Positions 37,601 to 40,279 of a stretch of 64,000 nt of DNA are shown here, one piece after another. The notes beneath the pieces are model-generated. The model saw nothing but the letters and a program-made list of their open reading frames with translations, was not told the DNA's origin and did no database searches. The stretch's first letter is position 1; each line of letters opens with the position of its first letter. The stretch comes from an uncultured Gammaproteobacteria bacterium (GTDB lineage: Bacteria > Patescibacteriota > Patescibacteriia > UBA9934 > CAZDDW01), in the NCBI GenBank assembly GCA_965231015.1, contig OZ246408.1, forward strand, positions 280,158-344,157. The letters are read 5' to 3'. Made by a program: the position numbers and the translations under genes.

Positions 37601-37750
37601 GCCTCCAGTGAGGTTGAATAGGTCAACCTTGTACCGTGCGCGGCGGTAACCGCGCCAGGCCCGTTTGGCGGGCCGAGTTTCTGTCCCAGGGTTACCAAAG
37701 CGCTGGCCGTCAGGCTGTCGCAAGGATCCCCAAGGATGGAGGGTTTTGGA

Positions 37751-38464
37751 ATGTCAGATTTGTTCAACGTGGGCCACGCGGCCCAACTGCATGAGATACA
37801 GAAGGCGCGCTTGGCGCGCAACGAGCCCGGGATCGGGCCGGAGGTGGAGGAGCTCATCCGGCGCTTGACCTCGGGCGGCGTGGCCGGCAAGGTCGTGGAT
37901 GACATCCGGCTGATCCAGGCCAAGCGGTTCTTCGACCGCGGCTTCGGCCGCGAGCTTGGCCTCAAGGACTTCGCGGCCTACCTCGCGACCATCCCGACCG
38001 TGCCCGAGACGCTCCTCGCGGACGACCCGAACTTCCCGCTCCTCGTCCTCGGCGAGCCCCGCCTCGGCCTTACTCGCGCTTGCGAGCTCATCGGCCTGCG
38101 CTACACGGGCAGCGACCAGACGCTAGTCCCGTTCGACAAGCGTCACGCCGAACCGACCAAGCCGTGGTGGTTCAGCATGCACGACGGCCGGCGCAACCGT
38201 AACCGCAAGCCGAGCGACTGCCGCACGAGCCTCGGTGCAAACGAGATCAGCGCCACGGCTTTGCGTGGAGTCTGCACCTTCCTGCACCACCCGGGCGTGA
38301 TCGTGCAGGGGGAACACTGTGTGGATCTGCCCGGCTCGGTCGACGCCGAGTACCGCGGCTACAACGCCGACCTCGGCATTTGGCGCGACGAGCCGAGGCT
38401 CTACAGAAGCATGAGCGGTTTCGCCGACCTGGACTACGGTTCGGCCTCCTGCCGGGAGTGCTGA
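37751..38464 (+). CDS. DGR target (variable) protein, GC-rich, no signal peptide. The C-terminal approximately 40 aa are encoded by the VR.
   Basis: About 62% GC ORF with RBS GGAGGG. Its 3' 122 bp align to the TR with mismatches confined to TR adenines. Confidence 0.7.
   Translation: MSDLFNVGHAAQLHEIQKARLARNEPGIGPEVEELIRRLTSGGVAGKVVDDIRLIQAKRFFDRGFGRELGLKDFAAYLATIPTVPETLLADDPNFPLLVLGEPRLGLTRACELIGLRYTGSDQTLVPFDKRHAEPTKPWWFSMHDGRRNRNRKPSDCRTSLGANEISATALRGVCTFLHHPGVIVQGEHCVDLPGSVDAEYRGYNADLGIWRDEPRLYRSMSGFADLDYGSASCREC
38338..38459 (+). repeat. DGR variable repeat (VR), 3' end of the target gene
   Basis: 122-bp alignment to 38781-38902. About 27 differences, essentially all at positions where the TR has A (for example TR AAC/AAG/AAC against VR GAC/GAG/CGC). 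The 3' 25 bp are identical, consistent with an IMH-like anchor. Confidence 0.75.
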
Positions 38465-38492
38465 ATCTCGATCCTGGTTCTCTTGTATCTTT

Positions 38493-38533
38493 CCGCCCCC
38501 AAGGCTAACCTCGGGGGCGGTATCTTTTTTCTT
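38493..38533 (+). terminator. Intrinsic terminator after the target gene
   Basis: CCGCCCCC aaggctaacct CGGGGGCGG followed by TATCTTTTTTCTT. Confidence 0.6.
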
Positions 38534-38780
38534 AAAACTTTGTTCAAATTTATTTGAAAGTAGGGTAATGAATTGCAGATTAAGGTTCGCAGTCCCCGAA
38601 ATCCTCGAAAGAGTTATCGCCAGAGTCATGTATTTTACGGAATACATGGGCGCGCGATTCGGACGAGTCACTCCTTGCTGAATTCTAGCGGGGATATGCC
38701 CCGGAATGAAATACAACAGCAACCTTCCCGGTGAAAGAAGCTGTGGTGAATGCGGGTGAGATTCAGCAATAAGTGAGGGC

Positions 38781-38902
38781 GGTCAACGCCAAGTACCGCG
38801 ACGACTGCGCCTACCTCAACATTTGGAACGACGAGCCGAAGCTCAACAGCAACAGGAACGACAACGCCAACCCGAACTACGGTTCGGCCTCCTGCCGGGA
38901 GT
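38781..38902 (+). repeat. DGR template repeat (TR), non-coding and adenine/AAC-rich
   Basis: Read in the VR frame it gives VNAKYRDDCAYLNIWNDEPKLNSNRNDNANPNYGSASCRE with many AAC codons. No ORF covers it. Confidence 0.75.
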
Positions 38903-38944: not shown

Positions 38945-39289
38945 CTATAATGACCGTTGCCAGCCGCCAAGCATTTGGCCGATTTTCTGCAGCCGTTCTT
39001 CAAAGTCAAGATATTGTTTTTCGGTTATGATCTTGATTTCGAAAGCCAGACGAAATAGCACTTTAAGGAGGTTATTTTTCAGAATAGCCTGTTTGATCGG
39101 CGCGATTTTGAACTCGCGCTTGGCGTTTCCGGCTTCGATGATTGAGACGAGCATATTTAGCACGGTTTCCTCGATCTTGCTGCCCAAGGTGTATTTTTCA
39201 GCCTTAGGGAATTTGGCGCGGATGAGATGAAAATCCTTGAGCAGGTCGAACGCCAGCTGAAAGACTGGCGCTTCATTGATTGAATACAT
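38945..39289 (-). CDS. avd: Avd-like accessory variability determinant (four-helix-bundle / 23S rRNA IVS protein family)
   Basis: 114 aa, helical. FPKAEKYTLGSKIEETVLNMLVSIIEAGN ... GGWQRSL matches the family pattern (FPK.E.Y.L..Q..R...SI..NIAEG ... GGW). Its start codon abuts the RT start on the opposite strand (CAT|ATG). Confidence 0.6.
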   Translation of the reverse strand: MYSINEAPVFQLAFDLLKDFHLIRAKFPKAEKYTLGSKIEETVLNMLVSIIEAGNAKREFKIAPIKQAILKNNLLKVLFRLAFEIKIITEKQYLDFEERLQKIGQMLGGWQRSL

Positions 39290-40279
39290 ATGTTTGAACA
39301 GATTATTTCTTCAGAGAATATGTTTTCCGCTTGGCGCGAATTCCGCCGCGGCAAGAGGGGGCGAAGAGACGTTGCCGAGTTTGAGTGTAGCCTTGAAGAT
39401 AACATCTTTGCTTTGCGTGAAGATTTGGCGAGTGGTCGGTACAAGCACGGGCCGTATCAGCGGTTCCATATTTTTGATCCCAAGCACCGCATTATTCATA
39501 AAGCCAGTGTGCGCGATCGGCTGGTGCACCATGCAGTTTATCGAGTCCTGTATCCTATCTTTGAACAATCTTTCATTTACGACAGTTATTCCTGTAGGAT
39601 CGGTAAAGGTACACATGCAGCTGTGAGCAGACTTCAGACCTTTGTTCGTAAAGTAAGCAAGAACTACACTAGTCCGTGTTGGGCCTTGAAGTTCGATATC
39701 AAAAAGTTCTTTGATTCCGTTGATCATAATATTTTGCTCAATGTGCTTAAACAAAAAATCTCCTGCCCTAAGACAAACCGTCTGTTGGCGGAGATCGTGA
39801 ACAGTTACTTAAGTTCAAATTCCGTTGGGGGGGGGGCGATACTTAGAACCATTCGCGCGAAAGGTCTACCGATAGGAAACCTAACTTCTCAATTATTTGC
39901 CAATGTTTATTTAAATGCATTTGACCATTTTATCAAAGAAACAGTCAGAACCAAGTATTGTCTAAGATACACTGATGACGCTCTTATCATCCACCAAGAT
40001 CCCCAATACCTCAAACTCCTCATCCCCTTCATCCAACACTGGCTTTGGCAAGAGAGAAGATTATGCTTGCACCCAAATAAAACCTCTGTCCGAAAATTAT
40101 CTCAAGGTATTGATTTCTTAGGTTATGTCACTATGCCACACTATAGAGTATTAAGGACTAAAACAAAAAGACGGATGTTAAACATTATTTGTGAGGATAA
40201 TTTGGTGTCGTATGCTGGCCTTCTCAAGCATTGCTCGGGGCATGAATTGATCAAGACAATTTATGGTATAATATCGTAG
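39290..40279 (+). CDS. Diversity-generating-retroelement reverse transcriptase
   Basis: N-terminus MFEQIISSENMFSAWREFRRGKRGR. RT motifs FIYDSYSCRIGKGTHAA, LPIGNLTSQLFANVYLN (DGR-specific SQ variant), the catalytic RYTDDALI box and QGIDFLGY. Confidence 0.85.
   Translation: MFEQIISSENMFSAWREFRRGKRGRRDVAEFECSLEDNIFALREDLASGRYKHGPYQRFHIFDPKHRIIHKASVRDRLVHHAVYRVLYPIFEQSFIYDSYSCRIGKGTHAAVSRLQTFVRKVSKNYTSPCWALKFDIKKFFDSVDHNILLNVLKQKISCPKTNRLLAEIVNSYLSSNSVGGGAILRTIRAKGLPIGNLTSQLFANVYLNAFDHFIKETVRTKYCLRYTDDALIIHQDPQYLKLLIPFIQHWLWQERRLCLHPNKTSVRKLSQGIDFLGYVTMPHYRVLRTKTKRRMLNIICEDNLVSYAGLLKHCSGHELIKTIYGIIS
39827..39836 (+). repeat. G10 homopolymer inside the RT ORF (encodes VGGGA)
   Basis: ccgttGGGGGGGGGGcgat, counted directly. 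Confidence 0.6.

What the first reader, a model, noticed from the sequence alone, without database searches (positions are those of the whole stretch)
39827..39836. G10 homopolymer inside the DGR reverse transcriptase gene: possible slipped-strand on/off switch
A run of ten G (encoding Gly-Gly-Gly in ...SNSVGGGAILRT...) lies between RT motifs in an otherwise ordinary-composition gene. Homopolymers of 9 or more nucleotides are mutational hot spots. A +/-1 change would truncate the RT upstream of its catalytic YTDD box and would reversibly switch diversification off.
Basis: partly seen in the sequence, partly recalled or inferred. Interest (0 to 1): 0.5.

Follow-up and report, generated by a model that had tools for sequence, protein, structure and literature searches.

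The report
Conserved poly-G frameshift switch in DGR reverse transcriptase
The run of ten G's is real. It is the in-frame ("on") state of a slippage-prone tract kept at the same spot in the reverse transcriptase of many ultra-small (CPR) bacteria, where related genomes carry it at lengths that break the gene, so it very likely turns their targeted-mutation system on and off.

Summary
G10 sits at 39827-39836 (GTT GGG GGG GGG GCG) in the DGR reverse transcriptase gene (39290-40279). It is the only G/C run longer than 6 in 64 kb. G9 and G11 truncate the protein at 194 and 185 aa, before motif 4 and YTDD.

- **Conservation:** all 10 independently retrieved relatives (about 57-69% aa identity) carry G8-G11 at this spot. 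Synonymous sites compared between lineages of this clade (pS 0.8-0.9) are saturated. The run persists across codon phases (CGG GGG GGG; TTG GGG GGG GGA).
- **Natural off alleles:** a frame-blind metagenome scan found 36 loci. Twenty-five are out of frame with tract length as the only lesion; 3 are clearly in frame.
- **Polymorphism:** near-identical contigs differ only in tract length. Protein clusters at 90% identity hold full-length and truncated alleles in all three frames.
- **Off loci are not decaying:** they keep adenine-specific TR/VR pairs, and dN/dS is 0.06-0.17 in both gene halves.
- **Second repeat type:** other clades carry a polymorphic (GA)n repeat in the same disordered loop.

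Best reading: a contingency locus gating DGR mutagenesis. I found no paper describing it. The window strain's own read-level heterogeneity and reversibility are untested.

The parts
39827..39836 (+). G10 homopolymer (simple-sequence repeat), in-frame 'on' length; codons GGG GGG GGG plus the first base of GCG
   Evidence: Homologous G8-G11 runs in 10 of 10 relatives. Lengths G8-G14 and frameshifted alleles in metagenomes.
39290..40279 (+). DGR reverse transcriptase gene (329 aa) that contains the tract
   Evidence: Pfam RVT_1, E 1e-25. Best solved relative is the DGR-type RT 8ub7_A, E 1e-49. AF2 model has mean pLDDT 91.
39821..39850 (+). Codons 178-187 (SVGGGAILRT): the only disordered loop of the RT model, within a larger segment (about residues 177-188/191) that is an insertion relative to the solved DGR RT. 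It hosts the repeat.
   Evidence: pLDDT is below 50 only at residues 178-187. The segment is gapped in the alignment with 8ub7_A. The loop varies in length in alignment A1.
39844..39846 (+). TAG stop reached when the tract is one G longer (G11; also G8): product of 185 aa
   Evidence: read.
39873..39875 (+). TAG stop reached when the tract is one G shorter (G9; also G12): product of 194 aa
   Evidence: read.
39863..39904 (+). RT motif 4 (GLPIGNLTSQLFAN), lost in out-of-frame alleles
39968..39979 (+). Catalytic YTDD box (motif 5), lost in out-of-frame alleles
38945..39289 (-). avd accessory gene (114 aa), divergent from the RT start and abutting it
   Evidence: Pfam bAvd, E 4e-17. The same arrangement occurs in relatives.
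38780..38902 (+). Template repeat (TR)
   Evidence: 123 nt, 80% identical to the VR; 16 of 24 mismatches are at TR adenines.
38337..38459 (+). Variable repeat (VR) at the 3' end of the target gene
37736..38464 (+). DGR target gene (242 aa; 66-69% GC in a genome of about 43% GC; no Pfam hit)

Best explanation
The G10 tract is the in-frame allele of a simple-sequence contingency locus built into the DGR reverse transcriptase gene of a large group of CPR/Patescibacteria.

Shown: the run of G's is conserved as nucleotides, not merely as Gly codons, in a disordered, lineage-specific loop just before RT motif 4. Its length differs between otherwise identical genomes. Most natural alleles are out of frame, with tract length as the only lesion.

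Inferred: replication slippage adds or removes G's. At G10 (or G7, G13) the full 329-aa RT is made and the DGR can copy the TR into the VR with adenine mutagenesis. At G9 or G11 translation stops after 194 or 185 aa, before motifs 4-7 and YTDD. No cDNA is made and the current VR variant is frozen. A further slip restores the frame. The population therefore hedges between a 'diversify' and a 'keep' state.

Other clades use a (GA)n repeat in the same loop, apparently to the same effect.
For: (a) Nucleotide-level conservation. All 10 protein-retrieved lineages carry G8-G11 at the homologous site. These relatives are about 57-69% aa identical, their RT genes are 33-60% GC, and they come from NCBI, JGI, ENA and Logan. 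In the tract, 27 of 29 Gly codons are GGG, against 45 of 140 elsewhere in the same genes. One RT uses no GGG in its other 11 Gly codons. The run survives an amino-acid change (V-R-G-G = GTT CGG GGG GGG) and a change of codon phase (TTG GGG GGG GGA). Synonymous sites compared between lineages of the window's clade (e.g. L001/L088, L086/L105) are saturated (pS 0.8-0.9). The eight G columns are the only invariant block in a 160-nt alignment.

(b) Frame-blind census. Of 36 metagenome loci with G>=8 before motif 4, 25 (about 21 lineages) have the N- and C-halves in different frames. A change of tract length alone rebuilds a full ORF in these. Three are clearly in frame.

(c) Hypermutability.
- L087 G10 vs L095 G11: 3063 nt with 2 mismatches and one further 6-nt indel besides the tract.
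- L097 G10 vs L116 G11: 4206 nt, 4 mismatches.
- L107 G8 vs L115 G10: 972 nt, 0 mismatches.
- L122 G8 (on) vs L109 G9 (off): 98.4% over 2879 nt, the tract is the only gap, and 15 of 44 substitutions cluster in the VR.

(d) On and off alleles within 90% clusters, in all three frames.
- P0250 (on) with 'QGGVVT*' and 'QGGGRYLK..*'.
- P0266 (on) with two off frames.
- Uhrbacteria: P0244, 348 aa (on), vs P0163/P0241, a split gene.

(e) Off alleles are not decaying.
- TR/VR mismatches are 85-100% at adenines in nine off loci.
- dN/dS is 0.06-0.17 in both halves for off-off pairs.

(f) Convergence. (GA)n repeats of 10-21 nt sit in the same loop, alone or fused to the G run. (RE)n-type clusters show repeat-number polymorphism and on/off pairs.

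(g) The N-terminal-half search returned 120 of 120 truncated RT fragments ending just after the G-run or (RE)n peptide, many on contigs up to 1 Mb.

(h) The loop is dispensable in the solved DGR RT and is disordered in the model.
Against: No read-level or clonal data exist, so the switching rate and reversibility are inferred. The window strain is sampled once and is G10 in both assemblies. None of its predicted off products is on record.

Off alleles outnumber on alleles by more than the 2:1 expected from neutral slippage. Alleles that would be repaired by removing one G predominate (17 of 25 loci). Three off-off pairs share that state. This could also point to recoding.

The scan needed G>=8, so it cannot see G7 alleles. 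The N-terminal protein search appears length-biased, so no on:off ratio can be taken from it.

The window's own TR/VR pair is less clean than its relatives (16 of 24 mismatches at adenines), so its DGR may not have been recently active even though it is 'on'.

The (GA)n case rests mostly on protein sequences.
Confidence: 0.66

Rival explanations
1. Programmed recoding. The out-of-frame genomic state is the normal one, and full-length RT is made at low level by RNA-polymerase slippage on the G run or by +1 ribosomal slippage of tRNA-Gly on GGG-G. On this reading the tract is an expression attenuator rather than a DNA switch.
For: - Off alleles are the majority in the frame-blind sample: 25 off, 3-5 on.
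- Seventeen of the 25 would be repaired by removing one G.
- Three moderately diverged off-off pairs (L104/L111, L087/L103, L090/L097) share that state and show strong purifying selection on the downstream half (dN/dS 0.11-0.17).
- Off loci keep clean adenine-specific VRs.
- Precedent: the Quimbyvirus DGR RT is encoded in three frames, with an apparently active DGR (PMC8008677).
Against: - All three frames, including in-frame alleles, occur inside single 90%-identity clusters.
- Identical genomes carry G10 and G11, two different off frames.
- The on allele of the L088 lineage is G11, not G8, so the direction is not fixed.
- A (GA)n repeat, which offers no tRNA re-pairing, plays the same part in other clades.
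- No conserved stimulatory RNA structure flanks the tract.
- Transcriptional slippage on top of DNA switching is not excluded.
Confidence: 0.17
2. A tolerated mutational hot spot with no adaptive role. A flexible loop accepts low-complexity insertions made by slippage, and the frameshifted copies are ordinary loss-of-function mutations of DGRs on their way to decay.
For: - The loop is disordered and absent from the solved DGR RT.
- Its length and sequence vary widely among CPR RTs.
- About 72 of 80 sampled genome-derived RTs have neither repeat in the loop.
Against: - A costly homopolymer would be erased by synonymous changes. Instead it is invariant where synonymous sites are saturated, and it uses the rarest Gly codon.
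- It persists through changes of amino acid and codon phase.
- Off loci have no second lesion, keep clean TR/VR pairs and show low dN/dS in both halves.
- Two different repeat types occupy the same site.
- The tract occurs in at least 3 separate RT clades.
Confidence: 0.08
3. An RNA- or DNA-level element unrelated to frame, such as a protein-binding site, a pairing partner or a G-quadruplex component.
For: The conservation is at nucleotide level. An 18-nt, 78% complementary match exists between the tract region and the hairpin downstream of the VR (I14).
Against: - No conserved pairing or covariation: consensus energy is -3 kcal/mol.
- The fold z-score is -0.86.
- There is no Rfam hit in the window.
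- No C run of 7 or more occurs in any locus.
- Tract length is variable, and a single G run cannot form an intramolecular quadruplex.
- The I14 partner was not examined in relatives.
Confidence: 0.04
4. Sequencing or assembly error in homopolymer length.
For: Long G runs are harder to call. Several contigs have low coverage (2-5x in their names).
Against: - The same length is recovered in five replicate assemblies, including two off states (L088=L092, L102=L110).
- The tract is the only lesion in 25 loci.
- On and off alleles are seen across NCBI, JGI, ENA and Logan.
- NCBI annotation shows adjacent split genes (HBR80836/HBR80835).
- The sequencing platform of each sample was not checked.
Confidence: 0.03

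Closest known systems
Intragenic poly-G contingency loci of Campylobacter jejuni, Neisseria and Helicobacter (simple-sequence-repeat phase variation)
   Same: - A G8-G11 run inside an ORF.
- Length changes shift the frame and truncate the product.
- The tract is kept at the same position across lineages but differs in length among close strains.
- On and off alleles coexist.
   Different: - The gene controlled is the reverse transcriptase of a DGR (a targeted mutator), not a surface-structure or restriction-modification gene.
- The hosts are uncultured CPR bacteria.
- No switching rate or phenotype has been measured.
- A (GA)n repeat substitutes for the G run in sister clades.
Quimbyvirus (gut phage) DGR RT encoded by overlapping ORFs in three frames (Benler et al. 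2021, PMC8008677)
   Same: A DGR RT gene interrupted by frameshifts while the VR still shows adenine-specific variation.
   Different: That case was interpreted as two fixed programmed frameshifts in a phage. Here there is a single site, it is a polymorphic simple repeat, and in-frame and both out-of-frame alleles occur in the same lineage.
Bordetella phage BPP-1 type DGR (RT, Avd, TR, VR). The solved RT 8ub7 is, from my memory, this enzyme or a close relative.
   Same: - RT with the IGxxxSQ motif 4 and YxDD.
- An Avd accessory protein.
- A TR/VR pair with adenine-directed differences.
- The VR lies at the 3' end of the target gene.
   Different: - The solved RT lacks the pre-motif-4 insertion that holds the repeat.
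- avd is here on the opposite strand, abutting the RT start.
- The target has no Pfam match and is 13-24 GC points richer than its surroundings.
Phasevarions (phase-variable DNA methyltransferases)
   Same: A simple repeat switches a gene whose product in turn changes many downstream traits, giving a two-tier source of variation.
   Different: The downstream effect here is sequence hypermutation of one target gene, not epigenetic regulation. This comparison rests on my own knowledge.
Contingency loci in coliphages T2/T4 (bioRxiv 2025, PMC12633550)
   Same: A recent extension of slippage-based bet-hedging to new kinds of genomes.
   Different: The genes and hosts differ, and no link to DGRs is made. 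Only the abstract was seen.

Membership tests
Diversity-generating retroelement (DGR) | Reverse transcriptase of the DGR type (RVT_1 domain, motif 4 with ...IGxxxSQ..., YxDD) | tested here: met
   Pfam RVT_1, E 1e-25. The best PDB relative is a DGR-type RT, 8ub7_A, at E 1e-49, well ahead of group II intron RTs at 1e-19. GLPIGNLTSQLFAN and YTDD are present.
Diversity-generating retroelement (DGR) | TR/VR repeat pair whose differences lie at TR adenines, with the VR at the 3' end of a target ORF | tested here: inconclusive
   The pair 38780-38902 / 38337-38459 is 123 nt and 80% identical, and the VR ends 5 nt before the target's stop. Only 16 of 24 mismatches are at TR adenines. Relatives show 85-100%.
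Diversity-generating retroelement (DGR) | Accessory variability determinant (Avd) | tested here: met
   The 114-aa ORF 38945-39289 (-) matches Pfam bAvd at E 4e-17.
Diversity-generating retroelement (DGR) | Target protein with a C-type-lectin or other known variable-protein fold | not tested
   No Pfam family matched at E<=0.01. The structure was not predicted.
Simple-sequence-repeat contingency locus (phase-variable gene) | A repeat with a unit not divisible by three, long enough to slip (about 8 or more for G/C), inside the ORF or promoter | tested here: met
   G10 inside the ORF.
Simple-sequence-repeat contingency locus (phase-variable gene) | A one-unit length change abolishes the product | tested here: met
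   G9 gives 194 aa and G11 gives 185 aa. Both lack motifs 4-7.
Simple-sequence-repeat contingency locus (phase-variable gene) | Tract-length polymorphism among closely related genomes, with on and off alleles | tested here: met
   Met for relatives: four near-identical pairs differ in tract length, and on/off alleles coexist within 90% clusters. Not testable for the window's own strain, which has one sample that is G10.
Simple-sequence-repeat contingency locus (phase-variable gene) | The repeat is conserved at the same site across lineages beyond what coding requires | tested here: met
   Ten of 10 lineages carry it. In the tract 27 of 29 Gly codons are GGG, against 32% elsewhere. It persists through changes of codon phase and residue and with synonymous sites saturated.
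Simple-sequence-repeat contingency locus (phase-variable gene) | High-frequency, reversible switching in a clonal population, with a phenotype | not testable with these tools
   This needs reads, cultures or a reporter assay.
Programmed frameshift / transcriptional slippage gene | A fixed out-of-frame gene arrangement conserved across relatives | tested here: not met
   In-frame and both out-of-frame states occur within single lineages.
Programmed frameshift / transcriptional slippage gene | A slippery site with a conserved stimulatory element (downstream structure, upstream SD, hungry or stop codon) | tested here: inconclusive
   A G run is itself slippery. No conserved RNA structure was found. 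Stops follow the tract within 3-14 codons in the window, but that is expected in any wrong frame.
Programmed frameshift / transcriptional slippage gene | Full-length product made from the out-of-frame gene | not testable with these tools
   This needs proteomics or a reporter.

The most novel reading that the evidence does not exclude
A stochastic DNA switch has been built into the mutator itself. Across a large part of the Patescibacteria, DGR reverse transcriptases carry a selected simple repeat (G8-14 or (GA)n) in a dedicated disordered loop. As a result most cells in nature hold a silenced but intact DGR, and rare slippage revertants restart targeted hypermutation. This would be a two-tier bet-hedging system, possibly with transcriptional slippage adding a low basal level. 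It would also mean that DGR surveys relying on intact RT ORFs undercount these elements or mislabel them as inactive.
Probability: 0.55. Interest if true: 0.85.

Novelty: new variant of a known kind. Interest (0 to 1): 0.8.

Why it matters
How DGR activity is controlled is largely open. Uncontrolled mutagenesis of a working binding protein is costly. A conserved slippage tract inside the RT gives a concrete answer that can be tested directly: diversification is gated at population level by a reversible frameshift.

It links two classic sources of programmed variation, contingency loci and DGRs, in one hierarchy. It does so in CPR bacteria, whose episymbiotic life depends on surface recognition.

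There are practical consequences.
- Many CPR DGR RTs in public data are split into two "hypothetical" or "partial RT" ORFs. At least 120 such N-terminal fragments were verified here, and 1128 candidates were scored.
- Annotation pipelines and DGR censuses that require a full RT ORF probably miss them or call them dead.
- The on/off ratio of the tract could serve as a read-out of DGR state in metagenomes.

Tried and rejected
- **Exact look-up of the 329-aa window ORF:** not on record, because the gene call starts at Met11. It was found as P0001.
- **Genome-contig scan with alignment A1:** None has the G tract, so it was useful only as an outgroup.
- **Viral-contig scan with the tract + motif 4 pattern:** 0 hits.
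- **RNA-element idea:** no Rfam hit in the window, no conserved structure, and an unremarkable fold. Rejected.
- **Inverted match I14** between the tract and the hairpin downstream of the VR: treated as chance, not examined in relatives.
- **N-terminal-half protein search:** returned only short proteins and omitted the identical full-length P0001. Its retrieval seems length-biased, so I did not use it for an on:off ratio.
- **DNA of the second RT paralogue (P0135):** could not be fetched.
- **Predicted off products of the window strain (G8, G9, G11, G12; two start codons):** not in the collection.
- **Literature:** six searches and four papers searched for key terms gave no description of a repeat or phase variation in a DGR RT. 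The main CPR DGR paper (Paul et al. 2017) is not held, so prior mention there cannot be excluded.
- **Consensus promoter/terminator scan:** added nothing.
Full report
**Observation.** The sequence at 39827-39836 is ten G's on the + strand, read as GTT GGG GGG GGG GCG (V-G-G-G-A, residues 179-183) in the 329-aa ORF 39290..40279. It lies between RT motif 3 (FFDSVDH) and motif 4 (GLPIGNLTSQLFAN), upstream of YTDD. It is the only G or C run longer than 6 in 64 kb; run counts fall 481, 116, 22, 3 for G3-G6 and then jump to one G10, against an iid expectation of 0.04. GGG is the rarest Gly codon in the window (17.6%). Of 14 Gly-Gly-Gly tripeptides in the window's ORFs, only this one uses GGG three times. 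G9 gives a 194-aa product and G11 a 185-aa product, both without motifs 4-7. A Logan assembly of SRR7048225 is identical over 6960 nt, including G10.

**Context.** The gene belongs to a DGR cassette.
- The target ORF is 37736-38464, with the VR at 38337-38459.
- The TR is 38780-38902: 123 nt, 80% identical to the VR, with 16 of 24 mismatches at TR adenines.
- avd is on the minus strand at 38945-39289 (Pfam bAvd).
- The RT has Pfam RVT_1, and its best solved relative is a DGR-type RT, 8ub7_A, at E 1e-49.
- The flanking genes are pgk, eno, gpmI and mutM.
- The same protein sits on a 1,002,985-bp contig, and all relatives come from Patescibacteria/CPR records. I therefore infer a CPR genome.

**The tract is conserved as DNA.** The nearest RT homologues are only 57-69% identical, yet they show V/L/I-G-G-G at this place. 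I fetched the DNA of ten lineages chosen by protein similarity alone, from NCBI, JGI, ENA and Logan. All carry a pure G run at the site: G10, G9 (six lineages), G11, G8 (two lineages).
- In the tract, 27 of 29 Gly codons are GGG, against 45 of 140 elsewhere in the same RT genes.
- One RT with 37% GC uses no GGG in its other 11 Gly codons.
- Where the peptide reads V-R-G-G or L-R-G-G the DNA is CGG GGG GGG. In another lineage the run sits in a different codon phase (TTG GGG GGG GGA).
- Neighbouring synonymous sites vary freely, and synonymous sites compared between lineages of the window's clade are saturated (pS 0.8-0.9).
- In a 160-nt alignment the eight G columns are the only invariant block.

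Selection therefore acts on the run of G's itself.

**The loop.** Relative to the solved DGR RT, the segment SNSVGGGAILRT... is an insertion directly before motif 4. In an AlphaFold model (mean pLDDT 91), residues 178-187 are the only stretch below 50. The loop varies in length and sequence among CPR RTs.

**Natural alleles are mostly out of frame, and only at the tract.** I scanned the metagenome collection with a frame-blind DNA pattern (G>=8, 10-40 nt, then motif 4). It matched all five known loci and none of 80 outgroup loci, and it found 36 loci.
- By tblastn with the two RT halves, and by replacing the tract in silico, 25 loci (about 21 lineages) have the halves in different frames.
- In those 25, a change of tract length alone restores an ORF of about 190-260 codons upstream and 135-157 codons downstream of motif 4. 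In five short contigs the restored ORF runs to the contig edge.
- Three loci are clearly in frame (L093, L108, L114). Two are in frame at the tract but incomplete upstream. Six are unclear.
- Tract lengths run from G8 to G14.
- Seventeen off loci would be repaired by -1 or +2, and eight by +1 or -2.

**Hypermutability.** Contigs from different samples that are otherwise identical differ in the tract.
- L087 G10 vs L095 G11: 3063 nt with 2 mismatches and one further 6-nt indel.
- L097 G10 vs L116 G11: 4206 nt, 4 mismatches.
- L107 G8 vs L115 G10: 972 nt, 0 mismatches.
- L122 (G8, on) vs L109 (G9, off): 98.4% identical over 2879 nt. The tract is the only gap, and 15 of 44 substitutions are packed into the VR, so the VR diversified and the switch flipped within one lineage.

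Replicate assemblies give the same length five times, including two off states (L088=L092, L102=L110). This argues against assembly noise.

**On and off alleles inside protein clusters.** A search with the N-terminal 179 residues returned 120 of 120 short proteins (148-252 aa; 1128 scored at E<=1e-10). They end 0-50 residues after a G-run peptide (at least 59) or after an (RE)n peptide (at least 25), and many lie on contigs up to 1 Mb. The retrieval looks length-biased, so it gives no on:off ratio. Within 90%-identity clusters, full-length and truncated forms coexist.
- *Uhrbacteria lineage of L088:* P0163 (220 aa) and P0241 (178 aa) are adjacent NCBI proteins, a split gene. P0244 is a full 348 aa reading RGGGLEEI. 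That is G11 against G9 in L088.
- *P0150 cluster:* an on form (QGGGSLLE...) and both off frames (QGGVVT*, QGGGRYLKL...*).
- *P0221 cluster:* likewise an on form and two off frames.

All three frames in one lineage fit DNA slippage and do not fit a fixed programmed frameshift.

**Off alleles are not decaying genes.** Nine off loci have TR/VR pairs with 85-100% of mismatches at TR adenines. Pairs in which both members are off have dN/dS of 0.06-0.17 in the N-half and also in the C-half, which lies downstream of the shift. The downstream half has therefore been translated through most of its history.

**A second repeat type at the same site.**
- Other CPR RT clades carry a (GA)n repeat of 10-21 nt in this loop: L002, L003 and L030 are in frame.
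- L100, L118 and L120 have (GA)n fused to the G run and are off.
- Protein clusters of the (RE)n type show (RE)1-3 in two off frames (P0215 cluster).
- They also show on/off pairs: P0152 vs P0276, and P0154 vs P0277.
- On a rough NJ tree of 114 RTs, the G tract occurs in at least three separate clades.

Two unrelated slippage-prone repeats in one dispensable loop point to selection for mutability.

**Mechanism.** *Shown:* nucleotide-level conservation, length polymorphism between identical backgrounds, frame loss with tract length as the only lesion, coexistence of on and off alleles, and intact DGRs in off genomes. *Inferred:* replication slippage toggles the frame. In frame, the RT is made and the DGR can rewrite the VR. 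Out of frame, a 185-194-aa stub lacking the active site is made and the VR is frozen. A further slip reverts the state. The window carries the on length. The same 1.0-Mb genome appears to encode a second RT paralogue that is off (P0135...SNSVGGGDATWNHS...*), but its DNA could not be fetched.

**Rivals.**
- *Recoding* (transcriptional or +1 ribosomal slippage) is the serious rival. Off alleles exceed the neutral 2:1, the class repaired by removing one G predominates, off-off pairs share it, and there is a phage precedent (PMC8008677). Against it stand the three-frame clusters, the G10/G11 pairs, the G11 on allele of a G9 lineage, the (GA)n equivalents and the lack of a conserved stimulatory structure. 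A contribution of RNA-polymerase slippage on top of DNA switching is not excluded.
- *A neutral hot spot* fits neither the conservation nor the purifying selection.
- *An RNA or DNA structural element* lacks a partner or covariation.
- *Sequencing error* does not fit the reproducibility or the single-lesion pattern, although sample platforms were not checked.

**Novelty.** Six full-text searches and four papers searched for key terms found nothing that links DGR RTs with simple repeats or phase variation. Two large DGR surveys do not mention frameshifted RT genes. The 2017 CPR DGR paper is not held. I rate this a new variant of a known kind: classic repeat-based phase variation applied to the enzyme of a DGR.

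**Limits.** No reads were available, so the heterogeneity of the window strain's own tract is untested. The metagenome scan could not see G7 alleles. The (GA)n case is mostly protein-based. The tree is crude.

Noticed in passing
window 37736-38464 (also L083, L122, L124, L126, L127 targets): The DGR target gene is 66-69% GC in a genome of about 43% GC. In seven related loci the target is 13-24 GC points richer than the RT and its flanks. The cause is unknown; it could be adenine depletion or co-transfer with the TR.
   Followed up: partly
window 38337-38459 vs 38780-38902: The window's TR/VR pair has 8 of 24 mismatches at non-adenine positions (for example TR GAC GAC TGC GCC TAC vs VR GGC TAC AAC GCC GAC). 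Relatives, including those with the RT off, show 85-100% of mismatches at adenines. The window's VR may not have been rewritten recently, or its TR has drifted.
   Followed up: partly
L002 (GA)10, L003 (AG)10, L030 (AG)5; L100, L118, L120 with (GA)n fused to the G run; proteins P0129, P0134, P0137, P0152, P0154, P0159, P0215 cluster: Other CPR DGR RT clades carry a (GA)n dinucleotide repeat (peptide RERERE) in the same pre-motif-4 loop. Repeat number is polymorphic, and truncated as well as full-length alleles occur within 90% clusters. This is a second contingency repeat at the same site.
   Followed up: partly
outside the window, same 1,002,985-bp contig (protein P0135): The window's genome appears to encode a second DGR RT paralogue, 70% identical over the N-half. 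Its product stops 29 residues after ...SNSVGGG, which is an off allele. Its DNA could not be retrieved.
   Followed up: partly
window 38945-39290: avd lies on the opposite strand, and its start codon abuts the RT start codon with zero spacer. Each gene's promoter must therefore lie inside the other's coding sequence. The arrangement is conserved in relatives (L083, L122, L124, L127).
   Followed up: no
window 38485-38502 vs 39825-39842: An 18-nt, 78% complementary match links the G-tract region to the C-rich arm of the hairpin just downstream of the VR (CCGCCCCC...GGGGGCGG followed by T's). It is probably chance and was not examined in relatives.
   Followed up: no
NCBI proteins HBR80836.1 / HBR80835.1, KKT70459.1, KKU08136.1: Public annotations of Candidatus Uhrbacteria genomes list the two halves of a tract-frameshifted DGR RT as separate proteins ('Reverse transcriptase' and 'hypothetical protein'). 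Such DGRs are easy to miss in surveys.
   Followed up: partly
L122 2373-2379: A second G7 run sits in the 147-aa ORF downstream of the RT in the P0005 lineage. It was not examined.
   Followed up: no
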